From Myxococcota bacterium (GTDB lineage: Bacteria; Myxococcota_A; Polyangia; Nannocystales; Nannocystaceae): a stretch of DNA of 64,000 nt. Under the pieces are notes generated by a model. The model was not told the DNA's origin, did no database searches, and saw only the letters and a list, made by a program, of their open reading frames with translations. The stretch's first letter is position 1. Each line of letters starts with the position of its first letter. The stretch is taken from contig JBCCHT010000027.1 in NCBI GenBank assembly GCA_039028615.1, positions 139,873 through 203,872 on the forward strand. Direction: 5' to 3'. The position numbers were made by a program, and so were the translations under genes. Positions 23,697 through 37,919 of the stretch are shown here, piece by piece.

Positions 23697-23880
23697 GCGC
23701 GCGCCCGAGGTCAAGCCGCTGCGTCTGCGACGGCGGTTCCAGCACTGCGTGCGGCTCTCCTCGTTCCGAGCCCAGACGAGCTCGACCGATCGCACCGAGC
23801 GCCAAGGCTCGATCCTGCACACTGCCGAAGCATTGTCGCCGTGTGTCGGAAATTTGAGGGTGTTACGGTCGAACCTGCTC

Positions 23881-24705: not shown

Positions 24706-24711
24706 GCCCCG

Positions 24712-25311
24712 CTACGTTTTCCTCGAAGCTCTACGATCGCCCACGAGTGGTGAGGACCGGTCGATTTTCACCACCCTCGATGCTCGGGTGCCGATCCGGA
24801 TCTTCACTGCGTCGACCTGGGACCGGTCCGCGACGAGCCCGAGACTATGGAAGCCAATCGCCGTGAGCCCAATGCCGGCGACCTTGATTTGGACGCGCAC
24901 CTGCACTGTCCGCCCTGTGAGCGTCGGTGGCTTGCGGCGCACCCGATCGGAGATTGAAGCGGTGGTCCACAAGACGACGACCAGTGACTCTCGGCGGAAA
25001 TCGACCCCGACGCTCTCGAACCAGGACTGCCACGCGTCCTGGTCATTCACTTTGTACCGCTCGCTGATTTCGCCGATGCGCTCGTGAAATCGCTTCCAGC
25101 TGCGGGGGGTGGTGAACACCGCGGGGGAGATGAGCACGTCCGACGTCAGGCCCGACTCCGGGGGCTGCGGCGTCGATCGGAAGGCAGGGCCTCCGGGGGC
25201 GGTCGGGCCTTCACCGACTCGGCACGCGGACACGACGGCCGTGCTCGCGATCCCCAGCGCGAAATGTCGCCGGGGTAGAGCCTCACGAGGTTTGTTGGAG
25301 AACAGGCTCAT
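24712..25311 (-). CDS. Hypothetical Tat lipoprotein
   Basis: PRRHFALGIASTAVVSAC twin-arginine signal plus lipobox. Confidence 0.55.
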   Translation of the reverse strand: MSLFSNKPREALPRRHFALGIASTAVVSACRVGEGPTAPGGPAFRSTPQPPESGLTSDVLISPAVFTTPRSWKRFHERIGEISERYKVNDQDAWQSWFESVGVDFRRESLVVVLWTTASISDRVRRKPPTLTGRTVQVRVQIKVAGIGLTAIGFHSLGLVADRSQVDAVKIRIGTRASRVVKIDRSSPLVGDRRASRKT

Positions 25312-25381
25312 GTCGGTATGCCAAGCCATGCTGCAGAAGCGACGCTGTCTGGGGACGATGGGCGCGCGGCGTGACTGCGCT

Positions 25382-25684
25382 TCAGCTCAGGTGCCCCTCG
25401 ATGGAGGCGAGCACCTGCTGTCGTTCACTCTCGGAAAGCCGCTCGTTCCACCACTCCGCGAACGCCTTGGGCACCCCCTCGGGTAATCCCTCGTCGAGTA
25501 GCGTACGCGCGGGGACCTCGTAGCTCGCTCCGAAGTTTCCGAAGCTCGAGCGTGCGTTGAGCTGGATGACACCGACGCCGAACGACACCGTCCCGTCTGG
25601 CCGAATCCAGACCGTGAGATCTTCGAGGACCTGTTCCGAGACCTGCACCTTCTTTTCGAACAGCCGGATCTGATCGGGGGGCAC
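25382..25684 (-). CDS. Hypothetical protein (100 aa)
   Basis: Protein-like composition and GC3-biased codons; no motif recognised. Confidence 0.5.
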   Translation of the reverse strand: MPPDQIRLFEKKVQVSEQVLEDLTVWIRPDGTVSFGVGVIQLNARSSFGNFGASYEVPARTLLDEGLPEGVPKAFAEWWNERLSESERQQVLASIEGHLS

Positions 25685-25788
25685 ACCTTCAACCTAGCAC
25701 GCCCGAAGACGCGGACCCTTGGAAACGATGAACACAAAGAGCGTAGTATCCCGGCTCCGCCCCGCTCACCATTTCTCTAGGACAACAC

Positions 25789-26610
25789 GTGCGCCCACTC
25801 GAAGAACTGCCTCATCGCTTCTGGCCCAAAGACCGACTCCCCGAGGGCGTCAAACCGCGGAGCAAGTTCAGCAACCAGAAGATCGCCAAGCTCAAGAGCG
25901 CGTACGGTAAAGCGGTGAGCCCGGTGCTGCGGGCCGAGGGTTTTCGCTGTGTGGGCACCAAAGGCAGCCGCCAGCAGGACTGGCTATGGCAAGGCACTTG
26001 GCTGCTCGGTGGCAAGTACGGAGGCAAGGCGTGGATCTTGATGTGTGCGCATCCCCCGGGCTTCCCCGCGCGCAACGAGTACGAGGTGCGCGCGCCTTTC
26101 GAGGTGCCCCAGTGCCTGTTCAAGCGCACCGTTCGCTTCTTCGACGGCCCGTCGGGCGACGAGTTCGATCTGGGCACTGCCGCGGAGACACCGGAGACGG
26201 TGGCGATCATGGCCGAGGCGGTTGCCGCCGATGGGTTGGCGTACCTGAGTCGCCTGGAGAATGCCCGGGAGCGCTTGCTGTCGGTCACGGCGGAGACCTA
26301 CGACACCCTGATGCCCGAGACCCACACCGAGCTCGGCCTTTCGGTCACCGACAGCGCCTTCGAGGATTCCGAACGCGCGCGGCTCGAGCTTTGCCTGTTC
26401 CTGCTGAGGATCCATCGAGAGGCGGGCACCGACGCCGTACGAGGGCTAGCCGACGCCGGACTGGCCGCGTTCGACCAACAACCCGAGCTGCGAGGCACCA
26501 AGCACTACCTCACGCGGATCCTGCTGGAGCGACTTCCCAGCGGCGGCCCGCTGCATGCCACCGACGAAGAAAAGCAAGCGGCCGAGGCAGCGTGGAGGGC
26601 CGACCAATAG
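25789..26610 (+). CDS. Hypothetical protein (DUF4304-like N-terminal pattern)
   Basis: VSPVLRAEGFR pattern resembles DUF4304 proteins (from memory); good codon bias. Confidence 0.55.
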   Translation: MRPLEELPHRFWPKDRLPEGVKPRSKFSNQKIAKLKSAYGKAVSPVLRAEGFRCVGTKGSRQQDWLWQGTWLLGGKYGGKAWILMCAHPPGFPARNEYEVRAPFEVPQCLFKRTVRFFDGPSGDEFDLGTAAETPETVAIMAEAVAADGLAYLSRLENARERLLSVTAETYDTLMPETHTELGLSVTDSAFEDSERARLELCLFLLRIHREAGTDAVRGLADAGLAAFDQQPELRGTKHYLTRILLERLPSGGPLHATDEEKQAAEAAWRADQ

Positions 26611-26614
26611 CCGA

Positions 26615-26860
26615 GAAAGGCCGGCCGCGGCCGCTCGCTCAGGCGCACCGTCACCCAACCGGCCTCGTCGGCATAGACGGCCCCAGCCAAGACCGCTCCG
26701 AGTCCGCCGCCGAGTTGCCCCACCGAGAGAGGTGCCTGCACACGACACGATGATCAGTGGTTTGCGGCCGAGACGTTCGCTGAGCCGACCCGCTCGAGGA
26801 CCGAAGGACACGCTCGCGATCCCACCGATCACGAACACCATCGCTCGATTCCGGTTCAGG
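26615..26860 (-). pseudogene. MFS transporter remnant
   Basis: MFS motif A GRLSERLGRKPLII in one frame and SVGQLGGGLGAVLAGAVY in another; far too short for a full MFS. Confidence 0.6.
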
Positions 26861-26863
26861 CCC

Positions 26864-27739
26864 TCACCGAAGTGACACGCCCAACGACACCGCGACGAAG
26901 TGCAGCCAGTTTCGGTTGAAGCCGTCGGAGAGCGGGTCGGGATCACTCGAGGTTCCGCGAGCTCCACCCGCGAGGTAGCGAACGTTGAGGAACGTATCGA
27001 CGCCGCGCTTCCAGGCCAACCCAGCCCGAAGCGAAGTGTCGAGGATTGCTCCCTCGACGTCGGAGCGACCGCCATTCAGGTACCGAATCGGAGCGTAGAA
27101 GCCGGTCGCTTCGGCGCCCATCCAGAAGTTGCGATGGACGAACCCACGGCCACGAAAGGCCAGCAGGGGCACGGGCCCGACATCTCGGACGCTGCGAAAC
27201 GCACTGCCGTCTTGCGCTGCGTACTCGAGGTTGGCGTTGCGGATCTGAAGCGCGACTCCAACCGCGACCTCCCGGTCATCCTCGAGAAAGTCGTACAGAT
27301 AGGTCCCGCGCCAAAACGGAAAACCGTAGCGAAAGTCGAGCGCGGTACCGGCGGGGAACACCACGTCCTCGACCCGCAGGTCGCGGTCCGTCACCGCTCG
27401 GGTCTGGAGGTCGAGCGGCTGATAGAGCAGCGCAATCGTGTGTCGACGTTTGCGTCCGATGTCGAGATCCGCGGAGAAACGCGCGAAGGGGAACAGAGTG
27501 TCTTGCCCCAGATCGCGCCGGAGGTCGACATAGGTGCCTTCGCGTCCCAGCTGTAGGCGATGAGACGCGACGGCCAAGAACCCGAGCTCTGCCTGCAGAC
27601 GGACGGCGACGGGCCGTTCCGGATCGTTGATGACCGAGTCCTTCGCCTCAGGGCTACCTGCGTGGGCGTAGGTGGGACACAGCAGGGACCACGAGGTCAC
27701 CGCGAGCAGGAGGACGAGGAATCGAATCGAGGAAGACAT
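26864..27739 (-). CDS. Putative outer-membrane beta-barrel protein
   Basis: Signal peptide ending AHA, amphipathic strands, C-terminal VAVSLGVSLR. Confidence 0.65.
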   Translation of the reverse strand: MSSSIRFLVLLLAVTSWSLLCPTYAHAGSPEAKDSVINDPERPVAVRLQAELGFLAVASHRLQLGREGTYVDLRRDLGQDTLFPFARFSADLDIGRKRRHTIALLYQPLDLQTRAVTDRDLRVEDVVFPAGTALDFRYGFPFWRGTYLYDFLEDDREVAVGVALQIRNANLEYAAQDGSAFRSVRDVGPVPLLAFRGRGFVHRNFWMGAEATGFYAPIRYLNGGRSDVEGAILDTSLRAGLAWKRGVDTFLNVRYLAGGARGTSSDPDPLSDGFNRNWLHFVAVSLGVSLR

Positions 27740-28265
27740 GATGGTGGGTCGACTGTGTGGGGGTCGATCACAACGTTGACCAAAACCCCCGAGGTGCAAC
27801 GACCTGGCCTTCCATGCTCCTCGTACGCGACGCTACGGTCATTGCGCGCCCCCGACTTCGCGCAGGCAAGCCCAACACCGCGCCGTCTCGGCCCTGCGTG
27901 GAAACAGCGAGTCGGTGGTTGCCAGCGAACGCGAAGCACCAGCCGTGTCGTCGTTCCCTTTATTGGGAAGTGACCCATCGCTCTCGCTCCGAATGACTGC
28001 GTCTCCGTGAAGCGAACGGAGCGCGAATTGGACACCATACGCCGCTCAGCGGCCCGTAGCGGCCAGTTGTTTGACAGCGGAGAACCCTCCGTCAAACCAA
28101 GGGAGGACTCGAGATCCTCGGGTTCGTCCGGGACGCGGCTCGCACGGCGATGGGTTGCTGCGACGCCGAGTGGACTGGCGATCGCGGGACCTTCGACCCG
28201 TTTCGTGCGTGCGTCTCGTCGTCTGCCCAGGCATCGAGGCCCCAGGTCTCGAGAAGGATGCGTTC

Positions 28266-28442
28266 ATGCAAAAGGTAAAGTTCTACACGGGCCTTTCGGC
28301 CTTCGTCTCTCTCGTTTTCTCCGTGACGTTGTGGTTCTCGGGGCACAAGGACCAGGGGGTCTTCGTGGGCTTGTGGGTGCCCTCCATTCTCTCCCTGGGT
28401 GCCTTCATTCTCTCTGGATGGAATCACTACGATGGAAAGTGA
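28266..28442 (+). CDS. Small two-helix membrane protein (58 aa)
   Basis: AAGGA RBS; two hydrophobic helices; GVFVGLWVPSIL motif. Confidence 0.7.
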   Translation: MQKVKFYTGLSAFVSLVFSVTLWFSGHKDQGVFVGLWVPSILSLGAFILSGWNHYDGK

Positions 28443-28542
28443 TCTCTTCATCTTTGGCGTGGGAGTCTCCGTACTCTCCCCCGTGCTCTTGTCCGTGGGC
28501 ATGCTGTTGTGGGTCGGAGGGCGCCCCACGAGACGCCGTTGA
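28432..28542 (+). CDS. Small single-pass membrane protein MESDLFIFGVGVSVLSPVLLSVGMLLWVGGRPTRRR (36 aa)
   Basis: Overlaps the end of the upstream small gene; one TM helix plus basic tail; below the ORF-track cutoff. Confidence 0.5.
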   Translation: MESDLFIFGVGVSVLSPVLLSVGMLLWVGGRPTRRR

Positions 28543-28663
28543 CCTTCGCGGCCGACGAGCAACGGGTGGGGCGTGGGCTCCGGTATGCCCGGCCCCATTC
28601 GGCCGTTCACGTCCAGAGAGTCGAAAACCCCGCCCTCACCCGCTGCATCCCCTCCGCTTCGCC

Positions 28664-29638
28664 TCACGCCCCCGCTGCACACAGCGACGCGTAGCGCACC
28701 TCGTCGCCGCGCCGGGCGACCTGACCGGCCAGCTCGGGACTGGCGACCGTGGTCAGGACGATGCGAGCACGCCAACGACCGAGCTGGTCGTCGACCGCCC
28801 CCTGGCTGAGGACCAGTCCGGCGAGACGCCGCACGACCGCCTCCACGTCGGCGCGCTCGCGCGACGTCGCTTCGGCGAGCGCTGCCTCTAGGCCCTCGAG
28901 GCGGTCGTCGATCACCCGTAGCGGCCGAGCGACGGACGCACGCTCACCGAGCGCCCGTGCGACCTCGATCGCGAGCGAGCCGTAGCAGACCCGCACCAGG
29001 GGCTCCCACACGTGACGCCAGAAGGCCTGGTTGGGCGCCAGCTCGACCCCCACCACCCGACCACCGATGAGGATGATCGCGCCACGCTGATCGGGGACCA
29101 ACTCGAACTCGGCGACGAACTCGTCGAGTTGCTTGGCGAAGTGACGGAGGAAGTACTCGAGGTGTCCACCGCCGCCCCCCGTGGACGCGCCCAGCCGGGT
29201 GTTGAAGCGCGTGATGTCGGGCCACAGCTTGTCGTAGCCCGTCTCGTTGCGCATCGCGAGCGCACGGCCACGCAGGGCAGCGGGGAGCACCACCATCGGA
29301 TGCTTGTCTCGCCCGATGTAGCCCCCCTGCGACTGCTGAATGCAACGCGCAGTGTCGATCTTGACCGACTGCCCCGCCCGCATCAGCTTGCCGCTGCCGA
29401 TCGCGTGATCCTGCGCCGCTTGCCGGACCACCCACCCCGCGCCCGGAGGCACGATGGTGGGACGGTCGTCGTCGTTGCGCAGATCGACGGTACCGTAGTG
29501 ACTCGTGCCGACCTCGACGTGGGGCGGGGCGAACGTCTCGTCGTCCTCGCCGAGCAGAGGGATCACCTCCATCACGCCGACGCTCTGACGTCGACCCGTT
29601 CGGGTTCCACGCAGGATGTCTTCAACGGTGAGTCTCAT
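28664..29638 (-). CDS. ARPP-1/DUF6569-like protein (324 aa)
   Basis: QSVGVMEVIPL...LRN..DRP.IVP.G......QDH...ARCIQQSQGG and QRGAIILIGGRVVGVE match my recollection of the ARPP-1 family; ATGA overlap with the vWA gene. Confidence 0.65.
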   Translation of the reverse strand: MRLTVEDILRGTRTGRRQSVGVMEVIPLLGEDDETFAPPHVEVGTSHYGTVDLRNDDDRPTIVPPGAGWVVRQAAQDHAIGSGKLMRAGQSVKIDTARCIQQSQGGYIGRDKHPMVVLPAALRGRALAMRNETGYDKLWPDITRFNTRLGASTGGGGGHLEYFLRHFAKQLDEFVAEFELVPDQRGAIILIGGRVVGVELAPNQAFWRHVWEPLVRVCYGSLAIEVARALGERASVARPLRVIDDRLEGLEAALAEATSRERADVEAVVRRLAGLVLSQGAVDDQLGRWRARIVLTTVASPELAGQVARRGDEVRYASLCAAGA

Positions 29639-31251
29639 CTCAGCACCTCTCGATCTGCCCTCGGGGGCAGCGACGTCATGCGCAGTAGCGCATCGATCAC
29701 ACGCTTCGGCTCGTGGTCGAGCATGGCTCGCAGCAGCGAGATTCCGGACGCGTCCGGCTTGGTCATGGGTAGGGTGGGCACCAGTCCCGGCGCCAGCTCT
29801 CGCACCCCCGAGGTCTCTGCCGCGACCACGGGATTGATATGGACGATCGGAGCCCGAATGCCGATCCGCTTCAGGTGCGCGCACACGTCCGCGAACCTCC
29901 CGGCGGGAGCGTTCTCGTAGCCGTCGGAGATCACGTAGATCACGTCGGGCCGCAGTCGGAGCATCTGCAGCAAAGCGCTGGCGAGGTTGGTCTCGCCCTG
30001 CGGACGAACGAGCCGGCCGAGGTCGGGATTCGCCACACCGCCCACGTAGCGCACATGCCCGTGACCGGCCGTGTGCAGCAGCATGTCTCGAGTCGCCAGG
30101 GCGGTGGCCATGGGCCGCAGCTTCTGAGTCGTCGAGCCGAACATGGACGCCGAGCCGTCGACGATGACCCCCACCGACTCGTAGTGGAACGGGAACTGAA
30201 GCGCGGCCTTGCGAGCCTTGTCGTCCAGCGCTCGCTCGATCGGCGAGGTCATGCCCATTTCGAATGCGTAGATGTAGAGCTTCACTGCCTCCAGTCGTGT
30301 CGGGTCCATCTCGACGTCGACACCAGCGTCCTTGGCCTGACGCTGCACGGCCATGCGTTGGCCGGCCGACATGCTTCCCTTGCTCAGCTCGAGGAGCTGA
30401 GCCTTGCCCACCTTCGAGTGGTAGGTCGCGGCGATGCCTTGTAGCACCTCGAGCGGCAGCCCCTGGCCCGCGGCCAGGTCGGTCTTTGCGGCTTGCGCCT
30501 TGTAGAAGACCGGGATGGACCATGCCGTACGCTCCGCGCCCAGGATGTAGGCCACGCACTCGCGCAGCCACGCGACGGGAGCCCTGGGCGCCCATCGGTC
30601 GACCTCCTCACGCAGGATCTTGTGTTCCTTGTCGCCGATGCGCGCCGGCTCCTTGCCGAGGATCGAGCGCAGGATGCCCGTCTTCCGCACGCCCCACGCG
30701 TGGGTCAGCGCCGTGCTGAGCTTGTCGCGGTACTTGACCGCCCACCAGTCCAGCGAGCGTGCCCGCAGGAGCGTCCGTAGTACGAGCTTCCGTGCCCGGT
30801 TGGTGTTGACCCGACCGGAGCCCAGCGACTCGTCCTTACCGCGCAGCGAGACCAGCAGCCGCAGCATTCGCGTGGCCGGTAGCTCGTGCAGCAGGTCGTC
30901 GACCAGAGCGAGTTCCTGCCCGGCGCTCACGATGGAGCCCGTGCCCATGCGCGGTCGCATGAGCAGGCTACGTACGCCGAGCTGACGCGTCCGGTCCGTC
31001 ACTCCGGGCAGAGTGAGGAACGCGGCGTACAGGCCACGATCCAGCGCGAGCATGTCCCCGTGGGACCTCTGCTCCGCCGCCCGGACCTCGCCCTCGTCGT
31101 TGTAGTGCGTCGCCCGGCCCAGCCCGGTTGCCGCGTGGTCGAGGAACGAGCGTACGACGTCGCGCACTCGCTCATCGGCCACCCCAACGGGCGTCGCCCA
31201 CGTGGGCGTCACGGCCTTGCGACTCAGCTCCGTGGTCTGCATCGTATCCAT
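29635..31251 (-). CDS. Ro60/TROVE-like protein: helical N-terminal region plus C-terminal vWA domain (538 aa)
   Basis: MIDAS VIVDGSASM...GETNL...ISDGYEN; basic helical N-terminal region; size and layout like Ro60; adjacent Y-like RNA. vWA is well supported; TROVE homology is inferred. Confidence 0.65.
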   Translation of the reverse strand: MDTMQTTELSRKAVTPTWATPVGVADERVRDVVRSFLDHAATGLGRATHYNDEGEVRAAEQRSHGDMLALDRGLYAAFLTLPGVTDRTRQLGVRSLLMRPRMGTGSIVSAGQELALVDDLLHELPATRMLRLLVSLRGKDESLGSGRVNTNRARKLVLRTLLRARSLDWWAVKYRDKLSTALTHAWGVRKTGILRSILGKEPARIGDKEHKILREEVDRWAPRAPVAWLRECVAYILGAERTAWSIPVFYKAQAAKTDLAAGQGLPLEVLQGIAATYHSKVGKAQLLELSKGSMSAGQRMAVQRQAKDAGVDVEMDPTRLEAVKLYIYAFEMGMTSPIERALDDKARKAALQFPFHYESVGVIVDGSASMFGSTTQKLRPMATALATRDMLLHTAGHGHVRYVGGVANPDLGRLVRPQGETNLASALLQMLRLRPDVIYVISDGYENAPAGRFADVCAHLKRIGIRAPIVHINPVVAAETSGVRELAPGLVPTLPMTKPDASGISLLRAMLDHEPKRVIDALLRMTSLPPRADREVLR

Positions 31252-31274
31252 CGTCTCGGTCTCCGTCGTCAGGG

Positions 31275-31429
31275 GATCGTTCGCAAAAAGCAGCCCGGGC
31301 CAAGGTCGGGGCCAACTATGGGTTCCAGAACAGGAATCGAACCTGCCCTCTTCGTTTCCAACGAAGTGCGCTCCAAATGCGCCATCTGTAATGGCTCCAG
31401 AGTCCCCGAGCTACTCTTTGCGATCGATC
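31275..31429 (-). ncRNA. Y-RNA-like ncRNA enclosing a full tRNA-like cloverleaf (anticodon GGA)
   Basis: Terminal stem GATCG-A-TCGCAAAGAGTAGCTCGGG / CCCGGGCTGCTTTTTGCGA-A-CGATC, internal loop with GACCTTG, inner stem TGGAGCCA/TGGCCCCG; cloverleaf at 31319-31391. Confidence 0.7.
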
Positions 31430-31439
31430 GTAGTTGTCG

Positions 31440-31469
31440 TGGAGACCCGAATTCAGCCTCGGGTCTCCA
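31440..31469. repeat. Perfect 11-bp inverted repeat (hairpin)
   Basis: TGGAGACCCGA-ATTCAGCC-TCGGGTCTCCA between tRNA-Ile and the Y-like RNA. Confidence 0.8.
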
Positions 31470-31487
31470 GCAATTTTCATCGTTCTA

Positions 31488-31564
31488 TGGTGGGCGCGGC
31501 AGGATTTGCACCTGCGACCTCTCGGTTATCAGCCGAGTGCTCCAACTCCCTGAGCTACGCGCCC
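31488..31564 (-). tRNA. tRNA-Ile(GAT)
   Basis: GGGCGCG/CGCGCCC-A-CCA; CTCGG-CT-GAT-AA-CCGAG; non-canonical T-loop TGCAAAT. Confidence 0.9.
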
Positions 31565-31633
31565 AGGGTAATCATCGCGGGCTCGTCGAGCGAGCCCATA
31601 CCGTACATGTCCATGATGTCCTCAATCTGTCTT

Positions 31634-31708
31634 TGGTACCGGGTGAGGGAGTCGAACCCCCAACCATCAGTGTGTAAAACTGCTGCTCTACCGTTGAGCC
31701 AACCCGGC
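31634..31708 (-). tRNA. tRNA-Val(TAC)
   Basis: GCCGGGT/ACCCGGT-A-CCA; loop TT-TAC-AC; T-loop TTCGACT; G27-A43 mismatch. Confidence 0.88.
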
Positions 31709-31760
31709 GTGGGTCCAGCGGGTCGCAATCCGGCGACCCTGCGTGGGACTCACGACGGTA

Positions 31761-31835
31761 TGGAGGGCGGTGCGGGATTCGAACCCGCGATCTCCTGGGT
31801 TGCAGCCAGGCGCCTTGCCACTCGACCAACCGCCC
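31761..31835 (-). tRNA. tRNA-Cys(GCA)
   Basis: GGGCGGT/ACCGCCC-T-CCA (U73); CCTGG-CT-GCA-AC-CCAGG; TTCGAAT. Confidence 0.92.
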
Positions 31836-31838
31836 TTG

Positions 31839-31909
31839 CGGCAGGTCGCCGGGGGATCGAACCCCGTCTCGTGGAGTTGGAGTCCACGGTCTCCTCCAGG
31901 AAGCGACCC
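31839..31909 (-). tRNA. tRNA-Trp(CCA) with shortened D-arm
   Basis: GGGTCGC/GCGACCT-G-CCG; CGTGGA-CT-CCA-AC-TCCACG; intact T-arm; only about 15 nt between acceptor and anticodon stems. Confidence 0.8.
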
Positions 31910-31987
31910 ATACGAACCGAAGTACGTACAACATCGCCAGGAGCGACCGAGGATGTGAAGTGGTTGGATCATCGTCCTCGTCCTTTT

Positions 31988-32063
31988 CGGTGGACCGGGT
32001 GGGAGTCGAACCCACGACCTTCTGCGTGCAAGGCAGTTGCTCTCCCAGCTGAGCTACCGGCCC
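31988..32063 (-). tRNA. tRNA-Ala(TGC)
   Basis: GGGCCGG/CCGGTCC with G3:U70 and A73; loop CT-TGC-AC; ends CCG. Confidence 0.92.
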
Positions 32064-32190
32064 ATGGGGGTCGCATGCCCTCCTGACCGGAGGGCCTACC
32101 TCGCGGCAGCGTCCTTTCGTGAAATGTTCATGATGTCACCCGTAAAAATTGGACAGTGGGTCAAGTTTGAAGAGATGAATTGGATCCCCT

Positions 32191-32265
32191 TGTCGGGGAT
32201 CGTTGGTTTCGAGCCAACGAATGGAGGCGTTTTCAGTGCCCTCTGTAGTCTCTTCGTAGTTCCCG
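32191..32265 (-). pseudogene. Degenerate tRNA-Phe(GAA)
   Basis: Loop CT-GAA-AA; T-arm GTTGG-CTCGAAA-CCAAC; acceptor with two mismatches; no proper D-stem; ends G-ACA. Confidence 0.6.
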
Positions 32266-32270
32266 TCGTC

Positions 32271-32403
32271 CGGTGGCGAGGGCTGGAGTCGAACCAGCAA
32301 ACTTCCGTTTTCGAGACAGACGCCTTTACCTGAAACCCCTCAGTAGCCCCCGGATCGCATCCGGGCCAGGTGTCGAGGGGTTGAACCATTTGGCTACCTC
32401 GCC
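32271..32403 (-). tRNA. Atypical 133-nt tRNA-like RNA, anticodon CGA (Ser), with ~50-nt hairpin insert in the D-loop
   Basis: GGCGAGG/CCTCGCC-A-CCG; D-stem GCC/GGC; TCTGT-CT-CGA-AA-ACGGA; 5-nt variable loop; GCTGG-TTCGACT-CCAGC; insert at 32334-32382. Confidence 0.8.
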
Positions 32404-32450
32404 GTATGTGATGTGCAGTTGATCGGGTCGTGAGAAGTGAAGTTCGTGAA

Positions 32451-32632
32451 GCCAACGATGGCCACACGGGCGTACGAAGCCCTCTCGGCGTAGGGCCGAG
32501 TCAGCGTGGCTCCGCGTGGAGCCAAAGCGTCGCGGGGGCTATGCCCTCGAGCGTCCCGATGCTCGTCGTATGAATGGATTCACACCGGGAGAACGCTCAA
32601 CACGCGACAATCTCGCCCGCAAGGCGGACGAG
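32451..32632 (-). promoter_or_regulatory. Structured leader/attenuator-like RNA element of the tRNA array
   Basis: 9-bp triloop hairpin 32612-32632; long hairpin 32529-32608 over the leader stop codon; CATCGTTGGC motif 32451-32460. Confidence 0.6.
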
Positions 32633-32692
32633 CGACCACAAGGCGGCGGCCTGGGCCGACGCTGGGGTCGAGATGTTCGTGAAACGTTCCAT
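32597..32692 (-). CDS. Putative leader peptide MERFTNISTPASAQAAALWSLVRLAGEIVAC (31 aa)
   Basis: Same end (I-x-x-C, TGT TGA GCG) and similar start context as the 19243 leader. Confidence 0.6.
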   Translation of the reverse strand: MERFTNISTPASAQAAALWSLVRLAGEIVAC

Positions 32693-32732
32693 GGCGTGAA
32701 CTCGTCGATCGCCCTTTGCAGGGCGTTTGAGA

Positions 32733-32760
32733 GATGTACACGAGATTTTTGAGTCGTCAA
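32733..32760 (-). promoter_or_regulatory. Candidate sigma70 promoter of the tRNA array operon
   Basis: TTGACG-N16-TACATC with upstream A-tract (AAAAAAAATGCACAAAT). Confidence 0.45.
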
Positions 32761-32883
32761 AGACATTTGTGCATTTTTTTTTCGCCGCGCACGAGGTGCG
32801 ACTATCCAAAACTCGAAGAGGCCACTCGAAATCGTGAGTTCCGCCTGAGCTTCGCCGCCCTACGATGGAGAGGTGGTGATGCC

Positions 32884-33696
32884 ATGGGCGACGATGCAAC
32901 CAACCGCTGGCTCTTTGCCGGCGATTCAACGCAGGCGCAATACTCCATGCGCCTTCGCCTTCAGGCGTTCCTGAGAGAACACCTGTCCCGGCACGGCTAC
33001 GAGCGAGCGCCGGGCGATCGAGTGGCCGATCGCAGCTTCGTGCTGGGACCTCCCGCGCGCTGGATTTGGATCGGCGACAGCTTCGACTCGCTCGATGGCG
33101 AGTACTGTCGGAACAGCCCGTCCGCATTGACCCATCAGCTCGACCTTCGACGCGCACTCGAGGCGCTCGGCCCCGATGCGGTGCATCCGGGGACGACCCC
33201 TCGCGCGAGCGGACCGGGAGAGCTCGCGCCCTTGCTCTCGCACCTGGGCCCGGTGGCCAAGGTGGAGATCTCGGACAGCTCGATCGTTCACATCGAGTTG
33301 TTCGAGCGCGGCCGCGAGATCGATCGCTTCGCCAACGGCGTGAACCCCTTCTACTGCTTCCCGGACGCGAAAAGGGCGGCGCCCTGGCGTGGGCATCCCG
33401 AGCGTTGGGAGCCTCTGCTCCGCCCCGGGCGAACCGTCGACGAACTTCGGGCCGCATGGACGCAGGCCATCGGACGCTGGCCGGAGGGCAGGTCGGCGAG
33501 TTGCGACACCATCACGGCAGCCTGCATCGAGCTGCTGGGGTTCAGCGAGCTCGTCGATCGGGGCTATACCTGGAATCCCGAGGGCCTCGACTACCGATAC
33601 ACGGCGTACCTGGATCCGGCGACACGTCATGCATGCTTCGAGCTGCACTTCCGTTGGCCGGGCAGCCCCGGCCGCGGCCGCTGGGACCGCGAGTGA
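32884..33696 (+). CDS. Hypothetical protein (possibly immunity-like)
   Basis: GAGGTG RBS before MGDDAT; VEISDSSIVHIELFERGREIDRF segment; no firm family. Confidence 0.55.
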   Translation: MGDDATNRWLFAGDSTQAQYSMRLRLQAFLREHLSRHGYERAPGDRVADRSFVLGPPARWIWIGDSFDSLDGEYCRNSPSALTHQLDLRRALEALGPDAVHPGTTPRASGPGELAPLLSHLGPVAKVEISDSSIVHIELFERGREIDRFANGVNPFYCFPDAKRAAPWRGHPERWEPLLRPGRTVDELRAAWTQAIGRWPEGRSASCDTITAACIELLGFSELVDRGYTWNPEGLDYRYTAYLDPATRHACFELHFRWPGSPGRGRWDRE

Positions 33697-33788
33697 CGGT
33701 GGGAACGCAGCGGCGGGACTCGGGCACACCTGCGGCGGATCAGCGGTGCTGGCTTACGCCGGTCATCGGTGGTGTAGTCCTGGTCGCG

Positions 33789-34409
33789 GTGAGACACGAA
33801 CGCCTCGACCCGACCGATGACACCTCCGCCACCGAGGTGTCCGACGTGCTCGCTCGCGCGTTCCAGAACGACGAGTTCTTCGTGCGTGCGTACGGGAACC
33901 CAAGCAACCGTACGCGAGCGCTTCGCGTGCTCTTCCGCGGGCTCGTCAGGCTGCACCTACCGCTGAACGCCTGCTTCGCAGCGTACGACGGAGATCAGAT
34001 CGTGGGCGCCAGCTTCTGGGCACCGTGCTCGTTTCACGCGGGATTCCTCGACAGCATCCGAGCGGGCATGGGCGGGCTGTTCCGGTATCCGATCTCACTG
34101 CTCCGCCTCATGCGCTGCGACGACCTTTACATCGGCGAGATGCAGCGCCGCGCGACGCCTGAGGCCCACTACCTCAACAGCATCGGCGTGCTCCCTGAAC
34201 ACCAGGGACGCGGCATCGGCAGTGCAATGCTGCGACACCAGCTCGAGGCCCTCGTCGATCCCACGGGCCTCGATGCGTGGCTGTGGACCAACAACGACCT
34301 CAACGAGCGACTCTATGGTCGCTTCGGCTTCGAGGTCGTGCACCGGGAGTCAATCCCCCCTCCTCGACCATTCACGGCCCGGCTGATGCACCGCGCTTTG
34401 GCGCGTTGA
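33789..34409 (+). CDS. GNAT family N-acetyltransferase (puromycin acetyltransferase-like)
   Basis: LARAFQND, HYLNSIGVLPEHQGRGIGSAML, NERLYGRFGF. Confidence 0.88.
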   Translation: MRHERLDPTDDTSATEVSDVLARAFQNDEFFVRAYGNPSNRTRALRVLFRGLVRLHLPLNACFAAYDGDQIVGASFWAPCSFHAGFLDSIRAGMGGLFRYPISLLRLMRCDDLYIGEMQRRATPEAHYLNSIGVLPEHQGRGIGSAMLRHQLEALVDPTGLDAWLWTNNDLNERLYGRFGFEVVHRESIPPPRPFTARLMHRALAR

Positions 34410-34437
34410 TCCCGAGGACCGACGGCGGATCTCGCCC

Positions 34438-37400
34438 TCAGTCTAGGCGAGCAGGATCGGGCAGGAACTTCACCCCCATCATCACCTGGTCGCTCCGAGG
34501 GTCGGCCAAGAGCCCCGCCCACTCCGCGAAGTACTGTCGCACGGGGCTTTGCAGAGTCAGCGCCTGTTCGATGAAGGTGGCCACGGTTTGGAGCGCGCCC
34601 TCATCGTCGAGGTTGCGCCCCGCGGCGATCAAGGCCTCCGAGGCTTCACGCACCCGGTCACCGCTGGCCGTCAGCGGCTCGATCCAGGGCCGAGTCTTGC
34701 CCTCGGGATTCGCGGACAGCGACGGTGTCCCCACGGTGAGCAGCTCCTGCCAGGTGTTCGCGCCCTCGGTCACGAATACCGAAGAATGGCGCTGGAACTG
34801 GGTCATCGCGTTGGTTCGACCGATGTGCACGAGCTCGACGGCCACATTCTCATCGGCGGCCGCATCGTCGTTGCGTGCGATGACCGTTCCGTCGGTGGTC
34901 TCGGCCGCGACGGTGTCATGGACTCCGCGCATCTCGTCGCCGAGCAACGCGACGACGAGTGGTTGGGCGAGCTGAAGCCGTCCGGCCACGCGCACCATCA
35001 CTCGCAGGAGCCCGGCGTAGTCGATCTGGGAGACGGATCCCCCGAAATACGCGGAGACGAGCGCAATTTCGGTATTCCGAGCCCGAGTGAGCACTGATCG
35101 CGGCACCGGATCCTGGGCAGCGATGGCCGCAGCGTCCTGATCCTCGGGGGGCAACGCCAGGCGGTAGACGGCCGTGCCGCCCGCGTCGCGTACTCTATCT
35201 TCCACGTCTACCGGATCGATGACGGTGTCTTGCCGAACCTGCATGACGTGCCCCGAGCGCCACAAGAAGGGCTGGAAGATCATGGCGGCGGGATGTTGCT
35301 CCGCGGTCATTCTTCGCAACACGGGCAACCAGTGACGGTCGAAGAAGGCCTCGGCGAAGTCCTCTCGAGCCATCTCTTCGTGGTCGGCAGCGATCAAGTC
35401 CATGGCACCGAACGCAGTCAATGTGCGGTCGACCGGAGGCTGGATGGCCAGCAGTTGGTCGTATTGAGCCAGGACCGCGCTGACATCTTGCCGCAGGACC
35501 CTGTCCCGCCAGGCTTCCTGGTTGTTCTGCAGTCGCGGATGATTGCCCGACCACTTGTGCCGTGCGCCCCATTCCGCAGCGGCGCCGCCGAATCCGGCCG
35601 GTCTTGGTTCCTCGAAGGGCTGCGGTTGTGCCCCGGGCCAGCAGTGCTGAGTCCAGAACTCCTGGATGTTCTCACCGAAGACCCGCTGTTCGGCCCCCGA
35701 GAGCCCGAGGTCGAGCTCACCCACCGGTCGACAGCGAACCTGTAGCTGGTGACGCCCGGCGGCGCCCGCTGGATACTGACCGTTCCATTCGTCGTGGTAG
35801 AGCGCGTACGAACGCACCGGGTCGTTCAGGTCTTCCTGCACCCCGAACTTCCGCGCGTAGATCCGAGTCTTCCGTTTGTTGTAGGTCAGGACGACCTCAC
35901 CACCGAACCCGATCCTCGCCAATCCGTCGAGCAGCTTGATCACTGCGGCTTGGTGACCGCTGCCGGGACCACCGAGATCGACGACGCTGATGCGATCGTA
36001 CTCGTCCAGGGGCTGCGTCACGCGGAATTCCACGACATCTGCGGCGTCTTCGAAGTCGACGATGTCGACCAACAGCTCGTGCCGCTGCTCGCCGGTCGTG
36101 GCCTGTCCCTCGATCCAGTAGCTGATCCCTTCGTCGTCCTCGATCGCGTCGGCCGGCAGATTGATCGGGAGATCGACGGGAGCTTCACCCTCTACGTGAT
36201 TCTGAAGCGGTGTCTCATTCCCGTTCACGTCGAAGGTCTCTGGAAACACCCGCACGGCCCCGGGACCATCGGTGCGAAGGCGAAGCGAGCACGGGGCATC
36301 GGGGGGATCCTTGACCAGCTGGACTCGCGCTCGATCCCACCACCAGGTGTCTTCGTTTTGCTGGTACAGCCGGCGCCCCGGGTCGCGTTTTTCGTCCTCG
36401 GGCAGCTGCTGCGCGGGATCGGAGGGGCCGGGCGTGCCCCCGTACACACACAGGGTGACGTCGGCCACCGTGAGCCGGAGTTCGTCCGCTTCATCGAGGT
36501 GTCCTACGAGACCCACGAAGAAACTGTTGTCGCGCGGCGCATCGCTGACGACCTTCCCTTCGAGCCAATAGCTCGGCACGACCTCATCGGGGCCCAGGTC
36601 GACGAGGAGCTCGGAGCCCAGGGGCTCTCCCCCCTTCTTCTCCTCGAAGATTTCGATGCCGTCTCCCACGGTGGTCAACCGGAGCTGCCCCGGCAACTCC
36701 GCGGGCAGGCAACGAGGCGTGACCTGCAGGCGAGCACGGGTCTTGTCGTCGTTTTGCCGAAGCACCACGCCGCCGGCCCCATGCATGACCTCGGGCGACA
36801 ACGTCAGGCCCGCGGCCGTCTTCGCGACCAGCTCCACCTTGGCCACCGTGAGGCTGCCGACCGCGTCCCCGGACACGCGATGAGTCGCCGATTCGAGCGT
36901 CCACTGCAGCTTCACTCCCTCGAGCTCGCTGGCGTCGACCGCTTCGATCTCGAGGTCGAGTCCCCCCGCCGGTACGGACTCCATGGTCACCGCGCCACCG
37001 TTCAAGGTCAGCGCTGCACCGGAGCGAACCAGTCGAATTCGATCGGTGCCCTGGGTCACTCGCAGCGTGCCCGTGCATCCCTCGGGCGAGGTCGGCTCCG
37101 CACCGAGAGTCAGTTTCACCCGAGGGCCCCCGACGACCGCAACCGGCTCGGCGAGCTGCATCCGGGCCGCGACGACCGGCGCCAGCGCGAAACGGACGAA
37201 GGTGATCTCCCCCGTCTGGACGGTTGCCGGGCTCCGAGCGGCGTGCGGGAGCTCGAACGCGTTCCGGCGCGGCTGCGGGACCGACACCACTTCGACCTCG
37301 TAGACTCCGTCGTCCAGCGGATCGACGCTCACCAGGCCTACGGCATCCGTGCGCTTTGTTTGTCCCGCAACTCGGACCTCGACGTCGCCGACCCCCGTGC

Positions 37401-37524: not shown

Positions 37525-37541
37525 GCTTGGCTCAACTCCGA

Positions 37542-37919
37542 TCACGCGCCGACCACAAACTCCACCACCGCTCGGCCTGCCGTACGCACCCGCAGCCGCT
37601 CCGCGAGCAGCTGCACCTTGAGGGTGCCGGGCAGTCGACGGTGCTCGAGCACCGAGCACGCCCACGCCCGCTCGGGGCTCCGTTCGAATCGGTCTCCGAA
37701 CTCGAGCAAGAGCTCGGCCAAAGTCACGAGGCTCTCCTCTCCTTGGATGCCGTGGTCGACCCCCGCTTCGATGGCCTCGACCACATGCCGTCGAAGTCCA
37801 TGCTCGCCGTCCCCCGCCGAACGACGCGGGTAACGCTCAGCCAAGTGCGTCTCGACGCGGTCGACATATCCCTCGAACTCGCCGAGAGCCAGCAGTTGTG
37901 CGCGACGAATCGTCAGCAT
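37542..37919 (-). CDS. Hypothetical protein of the 'MLTIRxxQ' type, recalled from secretion-system effector loci
   Basis: MLTIRRAQLLAL...HLAERYP...HGI; GAGG RBS; directly upstream of the large protein. Confidence 0.6.
   Translation of the reverse strand: MLTIRRAQLLALGEFEGYVDRVETHLAERYPRRSAGDGEHGLRRHVVEAIEAGVDHGIQGEESLVTLAELLLEFGDRFERSPERAWACSVLEHRRLPGTLKVQLLAERLRVRTAGRAVVEFVVGA

What the first reader, a model, noticed from the sequence alone, without database searches (positions are those of the whole stretch)
28664..32780. Leader-controlled operon: back-up tRNA array + Y-like RNA + Ro60/TROVE-like vWA + ARPP-1-like protein
Seen: co-oriented on the minus strand are a promoter box, a leader peptide, Ser(CGA)-like, degenerate Phe, Ala, Trp, Cys, Val and Ile tRNAs, a stem-enclosed tRNA-like RNA, a 538-aa helical+vWA protein, and an ATGA-coupled 324-aa protein. 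No integrase or phage gene is nearby. Known: bacterial Ro60 (Rsr) genes sit beside Y RNAs and act in RNA damage responses (Salmonella rsr-yrlBA-rtcBA), and cyanobacterial tRNA arrays are induced by translational stress. Inference: this is one stress-inducible unit supplying replacement or decoy tRNAs plus an RNP that handles damaged RNA, with an ARPP-1-like partner in place of RtcB/RtcA.
Basis: partly seen in the sequence, partly recalled or inferred. Interest (0 to 1): 0.9.

Follow-up and report, generated by a model that had tools for sequence, protein, structure and literature searches.

The report
Ro60-like particle genes inside tRNA array
A small row of spare tRNA genes is followed by a structured Y-like RNA, a distant structural cousin of the RNA-binding protein Ro60 and an unstudied partner enzyme, and the same cassette recurs in many bacteria and giant phages, pointing to an undescribed RNA-protein machine tied to tRNA supply.

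Summary
The core observation holds. On the minus strand lie four solid tRNAs (Ala, Cys, Val, Ile), a weak Trp, tRNA-like RNAs, a 538-aa protein and an ATGA-coupled 324-aa ARPP-1 protein.

- **Protein fold:** the 538-aa protein matches no TROVE profile by sequence. Its model matches full-length Ro60 (Z 20.3, 401 residues).
- **Pairing:** an ARPP gene follows the Ro60-like gene in every locus that keeps sequence after the gene: 35 bacterial and 27 phage-like (ARPP-1), 5 of a paralogous clade (ARPP-2, one in this genome).
- **RNA:** just upstream sits a Y-like RNA family absent from Rfam. Its closing stem covaries (89% paired against 61% in shuffles, on 31 phage copies outside the training set).
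- **Variable insert:** the stem encloses either hairpins or a tRNA mimic. Nine Pirellulaceae copies are 96% identical, yet their anticodon arm differs.
- **tRNA arrays:** co-oriented arrays flank the pair in 22 of 42 bacterial loci. All 528 tRNA calls lie on the gene strand.
- **Spread:** no orthologue was found in 40 relatives, so the cassette is probably horizontally acquired.

The promoter, leader peptide, stress induction and co-transcription are unsupported or untested. It is a new variant of the Ro60/Y-RNA system with ARPP as the likely effector. Its biochemistry is unknown.

The parts
28664..29638 (-). ARPP-1 protein gene (324 aa). Its start codon overlaps the stop of the upstream gene (ATGA).
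   Evidence: Pfam PF20208 E 2e-27, 96.8 bits. Invariant C99, Q104, Q76 and H78 in 26 homologues. AF2 model pLDDT 92 with no PDB fold match (best Z 4.0).
29635..31251 (-). Ro60-like protein gene (538 aa): a helical region followed by a C-terminal vWA domain with an intact DxSxS..T..D motif.
   Evidence: AF2 pLDDT 89.3. Foldseek: the 12 best listed rows are all Ro60/TROVE. VIA Z 20.3, rmsd 4.3, 401 aligned to 1yvr. Invariant D365, S367, S369, T421, D443. No Pfam TROVE match.
31294..31411 (-). Y-like RNA (Y3). A conserved closing stem (P1, internal loop, P2) encloses a tRNA-like body. The MFE fold extends the stem outward to about 31275-31430, and a U-run follows.
   Evidence: Covariance model R1: 42.6 bits, E 1e-6 over 500 kb, alignment shown. 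ARAGORN 'Ser(GGA)' 31319-31391. Fold z -6.16.
31440..31469 (-). Strong 12-bp hairpin between tRNA-Ile and the Y-like RNA.
   Evidence: MFE and centroid structures (positions 12-41 of the folded stretch).
31488..31564 (-). tRNA-Ile(GAU), spare copy.
   Evidence: ARAGORN. Rfam 68 bits. 77% identical to the other genomic copy.
31634..31708 (-). tRNA-Val(UAC), spare copy.
31761..31835 (-). tRNA-Cys(GCA), spare copy.
31840..31909 (-). tRNA-Trp(CCA)-like, 70 nt, of doubtful function.
   Evidence: ARAGORN only. Best Rfam score 27.8 bits, below threshold.
31989..32063 (-). tRNA-Ala(UGC), spare copy.
32148..32268 (-). It has the 5' motif, a closing stem and three hairpins, one with a GAA-containing loop.
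   Evidence: 5' motif hit. MFE closes P1 and P2, z -3.29. R1 scores it only as part of a chimeric 22.5-bit hit at 32193-32355.
32272..32344 (-). tRNA-like 'Ser(CGA)', 73 nt with no long variable arm. Possibly another degenerate Y-like module.
   Evidence: ARAGORN. Rfam tRNA 27.2 bits, under the cut-off of 29. 70% identical to the Y-like element L001:5630. Fold not better than shuffles.
32123..32690 (-). Three copies of a TTCACGAA-containing repeat in the 5' part of the array. Candidate regulatory or processing sites.
   Evidence: the repeat finder families D4, D8, D9. The only 3 occurrences of the 8-mer in the 64-kb window, both strands counted.
32597..32692 (-). Not supported.
   Evidence: no SD-like sequence upstream, GC2 0.59, and the ATG lies inside a repeat copy.

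Best explanation
**What it is (shown).** This is a horizontally acquired cassette. It consists of a short, co-oriented row of spare tRNA genes, at least one and perhaps three Y-like RNAs, a Ro60-fold protein and a translationally coupled ARPP-1 protein. The core of Y-like RNA, Ro60-like protein and ARPP is conserved in several bacterial phyla and in giant phages, usually inside much larger tRNA arrays.

**How it most likely works (inferred).**
- The conserved closing stem of the Y-like RNA docks on the Ro60-like protein, as Y RNAs do on Ro60.
- The variable insert, often a tRNA mimic with a changeable anticodon arm, sets which RNA or which tRNA-directed enzyme the particle meets.
- ARPP, a predicted enzyme with invariant Cys, Gln and His, is held by the protein, possibly at the vWA metal site. 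It acts on the captured RNA, most likely on ribose- or phosphate-modified or ADP-ribose-linked RNA ends.
- The particle thereby guards or restores the tRNA pool, alongside the spare tRNAs, when tRNAs are attacked or translation is stressed.
For: **Fold**
- Full-length Ro60 match: Foldseek's 12 best listed rows are all Ro60/TROVE (best E 3e-7, TM 0.53).
- VIA's top 10 rows are all Ro60/TROVE, Z 20.3 to 11.4, covering model residues 31-506. The next rows are vWA-only at Z 10 or less.
- The language-model look-up places TROVE-named clusters among its nearest hits (0.94-0.98).
- The metal-site residues are invariant in 40 homologues.

**Pairing**
- ARPP-1 lies directly downstream in 35 of 42 genome loci. 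Three misses are contig ends and four belong to a paralogous clade.
- It is downstream in 27 of 27 phage-like loci.
- The paralogous clade carries ARPP-2 instead in 5 of 5 loci that keep sequence after the gene, including an ATGA-coupled pair on contig C25 of this genome.
- The complex prediction gave weak support: score 0.55 (runs 0.54, 0.61, 0.55), best of 3 controls 0.00. The mark was reached by 116 of 157 solved complexes and 2 of 215 mismatches. At 0.60 or under it was reached by only 18 of the 157 and by both passing mismatches. Runs agree in at least 67% of contacts and partner pLDDT is at least 85.

**RNA**
- RNAalifold finds a 12-pair closing stem, and all 12 pairs show compensatory changes.
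- On the training set 86.0% of cells pair against 64.6 +/- 1.7 in shuffles (0 of 500 shuffles reach it).
- On 31 phage copies outside the training set 89.2% pair against 60.8 +/- 1.7. The covariation score is 0.796 against 0.240, and slid controls give 28-54%.
- Model R1 gives 57 hits at E<0.01 in the window plus 29 of 42 loci, and 44 hits in 24 of 26 phage-like loci. All lie on the gene strand, mostly within 1 kb upstream.
- Nine Pirellulaceae tRNA-mimic copies are 96% identical, with changes concentrated in the anticodon arm: UUU, CUU, UAG, AUU.

**tRNA arrays**
- 22 of 42 genome loci have 3 or more co-oriented tRNA calls, 16 have 10 or more, and one reaches 49 calls (one of them a tmRNA-like call) in 13.6 kb.
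- All 528 ARAGORN tRNA calls in L001-L069 are on the gene strand.

**Horizontal origin**
- No orthologue-level match in 40 relatives, 5 of them the same genus and 19 more the same family.

**ADP-ribose lead**
- The authors who described ARPP predict that it acts on ribose moieties of ADP-ribose (PMC9503650, passages).
- NADAR and Macro genes flank the pair in phage LR756500.1. SLOG and NUDIX genes lie near it in 3 other phage loci.
Against: - No sequence-level link to Ro60. Pfam TROVE and vWA_Ro60 do not match. hhalign against a canonical Ro60 profile gives probability 15.7%, over the vWA part only.
- The Y-like RNA matches no Rfam Y RNA or YrlA model. RNA binding is inferred from position and layout only.
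- Helix P1 in the training alignment is partly circular, because I chose each 3' end by complementarity. Independent support for P1 comes only from the model-fitted phage alignment.
- ARPP has no solved structural relative. Its activity is unknown.
- No RNA ligase, kinase, RtcB or RtcA was found in 79 + 19 + 131 flanking ORFs scanned, so 'repair' lacks the usual enzymes.
- 18 of 42 genome loci have no tRNA within the flank, so the tRNA array is not obligatory.
- The window's array is small (7 calls, 4 solid) and may be a decayed remnant.
- A U-run after the Y-like stem could end transcription before the protein genes.
- No expression data exist.
Confidence: 0.55

Rival explanations
1. Decoy or sentinel. 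The tRNA-mimic Y-like RNAs act as baits for anticodon nucleases or tRNA-modifying toxins. The particle either soaks them up, or senses the cut mimic and triggers ARPP as an effector. It does not repair anything.
For: - The anticodon arm is hypervariable on an otherwise 96% identical scaffold.
- The phage-encoded mimics carry odd anticodons: ACA, UUA, UCA, AUC, AGU.
- The usual RNA repair enzymes are absent from the flanks.
- The cassette occurs in both phages and bacteria.
Against: - Many copies of the Y-like RNA carry plain hairpins with no tRNA mimic.
- The paralogous ARPP-2 clade has only a short hairpin RNA upstream.
- No toxin or effector domain is recognisable in ARPP.
Confidence: 0.2
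2. Housekeeping of the array itself. The particle processes, folds or limits the spare tRNAs, providing quality control or dosage control of a foreign tRNA set, with no role in conflict.
For: - The pair sits inside co-oriented arrays, with tRNAs on both sides in many loci.
- Canonical Ro60 genes lie in the same arrays (L002:879-2573, L007:10255-12141).
- A TROVE gene is reported in 20 of 29 archaeal tRNA gene clusters (PMC6333295, passage).
Against: - 18 of 42 genome loci carry the pair without tRNAs in the flank. These include the Yinghuangia loci, which still keep two Y-like RNAs.
- The ARPP-2 branch in this genome has no tRNA cluster nearby.
Confidence: 0.15
3. Mobility function. The protein pair helps the array spread, for example by homing into tRNA genes, in the way the HNH endonucleases nearby are thought to.
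For: - HNH or GIY-YIG endonucleases are embedded in several arrays.
- The distribution is patchy and the cassette was not found in relatives.
Against: - No nuclease, integrase or transposase fold appears in either protein.
- A Ro60 fold together with a structured RNA points to RNA rather than DNA.
Confidence: 0.04
4. Chance neighbourhood. An ordinary tRNA operon simply lies next to two unrelated genes.
For: In this window alone the array is short, and nothing shows co-transcription.
Against: The same order and strand recur in 35 genome loci of several phyla and in 27 phage-like loci, with a covarying RNA between the tRNAs and the genes.
Confidence: 0.02

Closest known systems
Bacterial Ro60 (Rsr) with Y RNAs: the Deinococcus Rsr/Y RNA/PNPase particle and the Salmonella rsr-yrlBA-rtcBA operon (PMC4201824: abstract and one passage seen. 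PMC7790460: search listing only)
   Same: - A Ro60-fold protein with a vWA domain.
- A structured RNA gene, whose ends pair into a long stem with an internal loop, lies next to it on the same strand.
- A further enzyme gene sits in the same unit.
- There is a link to tRNA damage and tRNA mimicry.
   Different: - There is no detectable sequence similarity to TROVE.
- The partner is ARPP-1 or ARPP-2, not PNPase or RtcB/RtcA.
- No RtcR-type regulator was seen.
- The unit sits in tRNA arrays and in giant phages.
YrlA, the tRNA-mimic Y RNA (Rfam RF02553)
   Same: - Modular build: a protein-binding stem plus a tRNA-like module.
- Often several copies in tandem beside the Ro60 gene.
   Different: - It does not match the YrlA model. 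The best hit is 17.4 bits against a cut-off of 69, and it spans two adjacent tRNAs.
- Here the stem continues from the acceptor-stem side and the anticodon arm is kept and variable. In YrlA, as I recall it, the Ro-binding stem takes the place of the anticodon stem.
- Many copies have no tRNA-like part.
Long horizontally spread tRNA arrays (L-arrays, PMC8421152 passages; tRNA array units, PMC4758250 passage) and archaeal tRNA gene clusters with a TROVE gene (PMC6333295 passage)
   Same: - Spare, divergent, co-oriented tRNA genes with patchy distribution.
- HNH endonuclease genes are embedded in the arrays.
- RNA-processing genes lie nearby.
- A TROVE gene was noted in 20 of 29 archaeal clusters.
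   Different: - The window's array has 7 calls, below the 20-gene definition.
- The passages I read and the searches I ran name neither the Ro60-like/ARPP pair nor the Y-like RNA family.
- Induction by translational stress is shown only for Anabaena.
ARPP in ADP-ribosylglycohydrolase-centred systems (PMC9503650, passages)
   Same: The same Pfam family, with the conserved Cys and Gln that its authors took as signs of an enzyme acting on ribose moieties.
   Different: - That paper lists ARPP with ARG and rhodanese-phosphatase genes, and with HIRAN, WYL or a deacetylase.
- 'TROVE' occurs nowhere in its text.
- No ARG or rhodanese-phosphatase gene was found in the flanks scanned here.
ROT/TROVE proteins of jumbo phages beside phage tRNAs and RNA repair genes (PMC7824862, passages)
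   Same: Giant phages carrying many tRNAs also carry a Ro60-type protein, described there as an RNA repair platform with a tRNA-like partner.
   Different: That survey concerns TROVE proteins recognisable by sequence. The family here has no PHROG and no Pfam TROVE match, and it brings ARPP with it.

Membership tests
Ro60 / TROVE (Pfam PF05731 with PF25045 vWA_Ro60) | Sequence match to the TROVE and Ro60-vWA profiles | tested here: not met
   Pfam gives only VWA_CoxE at E 0.038, below its cut-off. A six-frame TROVE search of the genome hits C44 and C16 but not this gene. hhalign against a 15-sequence canonical Ro60 profile gives probability 15.7%, vWA part only.
Ro60 / TROVE (Pfam PF05731 with PF25045 vWA_Ro60) | Full-length architecture: a helical-repeat ring followed by a vWA domain | tested here: met
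   VIA Z 20.3, rmsd 4.3, 401 aligned, model 31-506 on chain 28-530 of 1yvr. The top 10 rows are all Ro60/TROVE. Foldseek E 3e-7. Ring closure itself was not inspected.
Ro60 / TROVE (Pfam PF05731 with PF25045 vWA_Ro60) | Intact metal-ion-dependent adhesion site in the vWA domain (motif recalled) | tested here: met
   D365, S367, S369, T421 and D443 are invariant in 40 sequences.
Ro60 / TROVE (Pfam PF05731 with PF25045 vWA_Ro60) | Binds Y RNA on the outer surface and misfolded RNA ends in the cavity | not testable with these tools
   Only gene adjacency to a covarying stem RNA is shown.
Y RNA / YrlA (Rfam RF00019, RF02553) | Match to the family covariance model at its gathering score | tested here: not met
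   No hit in the window or in 11 loci at gathering. At E up to 10 there is only a 17.4-bit YrlA hit across two tRNAs.
Y RNA / YrlA (Rfam RF00019, RF02553) | The 5' and 3' ends pair into a conserved stem with an internal loop, encoded beside the Ro60 gene | tested here: met
   A 12-pair stem with covariation. Hits lie upstream on the gene strand.
ARPP-1 (Pfam PF20208) | Profile match above the curated cut-off | tested here: met
   96.8 bits against 27, residues 15-261.
ARPP-1 (Pfam PF20208) | Absolutely conserved Cys and Gln (as its authors describe) | tested here: met
   C99 and Q104 are invariant in 26 sequences, as are Q18, Q76 and H78.
ARPP-1 (Pfam PF20208) | Neighbourhood with ADP-ribosylglycohydrolase and rhodanese-phosphatase genes | tested here: not met
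   Neither was found among the flanking ORFs scanned. NADAR, Macro, SLOG and NUDIX occur in some phage loci.
tRNA array unit / L-array | At least 20 tRNA genes at 2 or more per kb | tested here: not met
   The window has 7 ARAGORN calls in about 1.03 kb, 4 of them solid. The count of 20 is reached within the fetched flanks of related loci L001, L002, L003, L004, L007, L009 and L013.
tRNA array unit / L-array | Spare tRNAs acquired horizontally | tested here: met
   ARAGORN calls another copy of each isoacceptor elsewhere in the genome, at most 77% identical. The linked protein was not found in 40 relatives.
tRNA array unit / L-array | Induced by translational stress | not testable with these tools
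   No RNA data could be laid on the locus.
Rsr-Yrl-RtcBA RNA repair operon | RtcB ligase, RtcA cyclase and RtcR regulator in the unit | tested here: not met
   None appears among the window's 19 neighbouring ORFs or in the flanks of related loci.

The most novel reading that the evidence does not exclude
ARPP-1 and ARPP-2 are the catalytic effectors of a previously unrecognised class of Ro60-like particles. Their Y-like RNAs work as exchangeable adaptors: a fixed protein-binding handle carries a swappable tRNA anticodon arm. Giant phages and bacteria use the particle to detect, shield or mend particular tRNAs that are cut or chemically tagged (for example ADP-ribosylated) during conflicts. That would make it a programmable tRNA-protection device travelling with its own spare tRNA set.
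Probability: 0.3. Interest if true: 0.88.

Novelty: new variant of a known kind. Interest (0 to 1): 0.76.

Why it matters
- **Ro60 biology.** What bacterial Ro60 particles do, and which enzymes they bring to RNA, is known for only a few cases. Here a Ro60-fold family that sequence profiles miss is coupled without exception, in every locus that could be judged, to ARPP.
- **ARPP biology.** ARPP is an enzyme-like family with no known activity and no solved relative. The coupling gives ARPP a concrete setting (RNA, tRNA-like) and gives Ro60 biology a new effector.
- **The RNA.** The accompanying RNA family is not in Rfam. It shows a fixed handle with a variable tRNA anticodon arm, which turns the idea of tRNA decoys or adaptors into something that can be tested directly.
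- **tRNA arrays.** It offers a functional reason why Ro60-type genes keep turning up inside tRNA arrays of archaea, bacteria and giant phages.

Tried and rejected
- **Sequence links to Ro60.** phmmer and a family profile against PDB sequences found no Ro60. hhalign against one canonical Ro60 gave 2% and against a 15-sequence profile 15.7%, both uninformative.
- **Other libraries.** NCBIfam, PADLOC and PHROGs have no family for either protein.
- **ARPP fold.** Foldseek's best E was 0.05 (PNPase, TM 0.11), which I treat as noise. The wide VIA search gave a best Z of 4.0.
- **Expression.** No RNA holder is listed for the locus.
- **Earlier notes of this scan.** Nothing for this place or this sequence.
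- **First motif regex.** It had the wrong spacing and gave only noise. It was corrected.
- **Island borders.** DNA of window 21000-40900 against 5 same-genus genomes gave only scattered matches to flanking genes and tRNAs. The borders could not be set.
- **Origin of the array tRNAs.** They are no closer to tRNAs of other cassettes (49-84%) than to the genome's own (52-77%), so they give no sign of common descent.
- **Leader peptide and sigma-70 promoter.** No support.
- **Literature.**
  - Searches for ARPP with TROVE, for tRNA array with VWA, TROVE or Ro60, and for DUF6569, ARPP-1 or PF20208 found no paper joining ARPP to Ro60 or to tRNA arrays.
  - Burroughs and Aravind 2016 is not held. What I say of it is recalled, and it may bear on novelty.
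  - Supplements were not opened.
- **Recalled resemblance.** I considered a likeness of the stem's 3' strand to the vertebrate Ro-binding stem from memory only. It was not tested, so it is not used.

Full report
**1. What is in the window**

The window is about 67% G+C. It belongs to a 12.27-Mb genome in 94 contigs.

On the minus strand ARAGORN calls seven tRNAs between 32344 and 31319.
- Rfam supports Ala, Cys, Val and Ile at 64-68 bits, and the last element ('Ser-GGA', 73 nt) at 49.1 bits.
- 'Trp' and 'Ser-CGA' fall below the Rfam thresholds.

Downstream lie a 538-aa ORF (29635-31251) and a 324-aa ORF (28664-29638). They overlap by ATGA.

The genome has 86 tRNA calls. Every isoacceptor of the array has another copy called elsewhere, and the best of these is 52-77% identical, so the array is spare.

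Neighbouring ORFs give ordinary or unknown families: CobW, cytochrome c peroxidase, AraC and a GNAT. None is an integrase or a phage gene.

**2. The two proteins**

The 324-aa protein is Pfam ARPP-1 (96.8 bits).
- Its describers found ARPP in ADP-ribosylglycohydrolase-centred systems and in pairs with HIRAN, WYL or a deacetylase.
- They predicted an enzyme acting on ribose moieties, with a conserved Cys and Gln (PMC9503650, passages).
- 'TROVE' does not occur in that paper.
- In 26 homologues C99, Q104, Q76, H78 and Q18 are invariant.
- The AF2 model is confident (pLDDT 92) but has no solved relative.

The 538-aa protein has only a sub-threshold vWA hit in Pfam, yet it belongs to a well-conserved family.
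- 386 proteins scored at E<=0.001 among 8000 candidates.
- Its model (pLDDT 89.3, pTM 0.86) matches Ro60 over its whole length. Foldseek's 12 best listed rows are all Ro60/TROVE.
- VIA gives Z 20.3, rmsd 4.3 and 401 aligned residues. The top ten rows are all Ro60/TROVE, including the Deinococcus Rsr and a Thermus phage Ro60, and vWA-only hits follow at Z 10 or less.
- The vWA metal-site residues are invariant.
- The language-model atlas puts TROVE-named clusters among its nearest neighbours.
- By sequence, kinship to Ro60 cannot be shown.

I therefore call it Ro60-like by fold, not a TROVE family member.

**3. The pair is a unit**

In 42 genome loci found with the family profile, ARPP-1 follows directly in 35.
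- The loci come from Myxococcota, Planctomycetota, Bacteroidota, Gemmatimonadota, Actinomycetota, Gammaproteobacteria, Magnetococcales and two archaeon-labelled bins.
- Three misses are contig ends.
- Four misses are a distant clade (27-31% identity).

That distant clade, including a second pair on contig C25 of this genome, is followed instead by ARPP-2. The C25 pair is again ATGA-coupled, with PF22549 at E 8e-90. ARPP-2 is present in 5 of 5 loci that keep sequence after the gene.

The pair also occurs in a 462-kb uncultured phage genome and in 26 IMG/VR contigs of 36-436 kb and 24-62% G+C. ARPP-1 is downstream in 27 of 27.

Their flanks carry RecA, ThyX, dUTPase, helicases, a sigma factor and homing endonucleases.

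A complex prediction gave weak support only: 0.55 against 0.00 for the best of 3 controls (full counts are in the For line).

**4. A Y-like RNA family**

Upstream regions share a 5' motif: G-G/A-G/C-A(A)-C-U, about ten bases, then U-U/A-C-A-G. They also share a matching 3' strand.

An alignment of 31 elements gives a 12-pair closing stem under RNAalifold. It consists of P1, an internal loop, P2a, a bulge and P2b. All 12 pairs have compensatory changes.
- 86.0% of cells pair, against 64.6 +/- 1.7 in shuffles.
- The covariation score is 0.592 against 0.204.
- Slid controls give 25-59%.

One caveat applies. I set each 3' end by its complementarity to the first seven bases, so P1 is partly circular in this set. 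P2 is not.

A covariance model built from the alignment finds the following.
- 57 hits at E<0.01 in the window plus 29 of 42 loci, 26 of them not in the training set.
- 44 hits in 24 of 26 phage-like loci.
- Every hit is on the gene strand. Most lie within 1 kb upstream of the Ro60-like gene, with one to three, rarely four, in tandem.

On 31 phage copies outside the training set, 89.2% of cells pair against 60.8 +/- 1.7. Covariation is 0.796 against 0.240, and 11 of 12 pairs have compensatory changes. That alignment is fitted to the model.

No Rfam family matches these RNAs.

The inside of the stem varies. It holds two or three hairpins in some copies and a tRNA-like body in others.
- ARAGORN reads the tRNA-like bodies as Lys, Leu, Asn, Ser, Glu, Ala, Thr, Cys, Met, Ile or Asp, or with unassignable anticodons.
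- Nine such elements from different Pirellulaceae genomes are 96% identical over 117 nt.
- Nearly all their changes lie in the anticodon arm: UUU, CUU, UAG, AUU, with compensated stem changes in one copy.

In the window the clear copy is 31294-31411 (42.6 bits). The MFE fold extends its stem outward and a U-run follows.

'Ser-CGA' is 70% identical to the Y-like element of locus L001. I regard both as probable degenerate modules.

**5. The link with tRNA arrays**

- 22 of 42 genome loci have three or more tRNA calls in the fetched flanks, and 16 have ten or more.
- One locus of Minicystis rosea reaches 49 calls (one of them a tmRNA-like call) in 13.6 kb.
- 18 loci have none.
- All 528 tRNA calls in loci L001-L069 lie on the gene strand. 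A few of these loci are duplicates of one another.

Inside the same arrays lie other genes:
- canonical Ro60 genes (L002:879-2573; L007:10255-12141);
- HNH endonucleases;
- in one locus, an SPFH protein and endonuclease V.

This fits what is in print.
- Long horizontally spread arrays have HNH and rtcB neighbours and are induced by translational stress in Anabaena (PMC8421152, passages).
- A TROVE gene sits in 20 of 29 archaeal tRNA clusters (PMC6333295).
- Jumbo phages carry ROT/TROVE proteins with tRNAs (PMC7824862).

No orthologue of the Ro60-like protein was found in 40 relatives (completeness 71-100%). The cassette is therefore very likely acquired. With only four solid tRNAs it may be a reduced version.

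**6. How it probably works**

Shown:
- the fold of the protein;
- the strict gene pairing in two paralogous branches;
- the covarying RNA;
- its position and strand;
- the variable insert;
- the frequent embedding in tRNA arrays;
- the presence in phages.

Inferred:
- that the stem binds the Ro60-like protein;
- that ARPP is held by it;
- that the particle acts on tRNA-like RNA.

The ADP-ribose reading of ARPP rests on its describers' prediction and on a few phage neighbourhoods. NADAR and Macro lie beside the pair in the 462-kb phage. SLOG and NUDIX genes lie near it in three other phage loci.

The lack of ligase, kinase or RtcB/RtcA in 229 flanking ORFs argues against classical cut-and-seal repair. 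It keeps the decoy or sentinel reading alive.

**7. What did not hold**

- No sigma-70-like promoter was found.
- The 'leader peptide' has no support. Its ATG lies in one of three copies of a TTCACGAA repeat, and these are the only occurrences of that 8-mer in the window. They look more like nucleic-acid signals.
- Co-transcription and stress induction remain untested.

**8. Verdict**

This is a real, conserved cassette. It is a new variant of the Ro60/Y-RNA kind, with a new RNA family and ARPP as the likely effector. The searches I ran found no paper that joins ARPP to Ro60 or to tRNA arrays. One key review is not held, and supplements were not read.

Noticed in passing
own genome contig C25, locus L072:251-2889 (minus strand): A second, paralogous pair in the same genome. 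A Ro60-like protein (508 aa, 28-33% identical to the first) is ATGA-coupled to an ARPP-2 protein (PF22549, E 8e-90). A short stem RNA carrying the GGGACUUCGG motif lies upstream, and there is no tRNA cluster nearby.
   Followed up: partly
L002:879-2573 and L007:10255-12141: Canonical Ro60 genes (TROVE plus vWA_Ro60) lie in the same tRNA arrays as the divergent Ro60-like/ARPP pair. Some arrays therefore carry two kinds of Ro60-type protein.
   Followed up: partly
own genome C44:100757-100972 and C16:127651-127851 (L073, L074): Two further open frames (570 and 554 aa) match Pfam TROVE just above its cut-off. Together with the two ARPP-coupled genes, this genome may hold four Ro60-type genes.
   Followed up: no
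window 32123-32690, minus strand: Three copies of a TTCACGAA-containing repeat, partly as tandem heptamers, lie in the spacers of the 5' part of the array. They may be operator or processing sites, by analogy with the direct repeats that control the Anabaena array.
   Followed up: partly
L002:10698-11207, L007:4737-5261, L027:1905-2489, L046:14217-14777, L061:12705-13268, L045:4117-5232: HNH or GIY-YIG homing-type endonuclease genes are embedded between tRNAs of the arrays, in both bacterial and phage-like loci.
   Followed up: no
L011:2963-3820 and 4117-4701: An SPFH/Band-7 gene and an endonuclease V gene sit inside the Stieleria tRNA array upstream of the cassette.
   Followed up: no
L054:4420-4794, L057:1841-2204, L058:4371-4726: ARAGORN calls tmRNA genes, co-oriented with the cassette, in three phage-like contigs.
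   Followed up: no
L061:5796-7169: A TnpB/IS605 OrfB-type gene sits between the Y-like RNAs and the Ro60-like gene of one phage-like locus. This explains the unusually long gap there.
   Followed up: no
window 33066-34406 (+); L003:11967-12737, L036:11509-11955, L008:5113-5532, L017:4424-5623: A GNAT acetyltransferase gene recurs near the pair. In the two loci that lack tRNAs it lies directly upstream. This could be chance.
   Followed up: no
L069 (phage LR756500.1) 168-641, 15084-15659, 7544-8023, 6504-7307: NADAR, Macro, CYTH and R2K ATP-grasp genes surround the pair in the 462-kb phage. The cluster has an ADP-ribose and nucleotide flavour.
   Followed up: partly
L054:10614-12806: A RecA-like gene with an intein splicing domain lies next to the cassette in a phage-like contig.
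   Followed up: no
window 19442-19705 (+): A separate tRNA-Asp/tRNA-His pair lies on the opposite strand about 12 kb away. Both score well and appear unrelated to the array.
   Followed up: no
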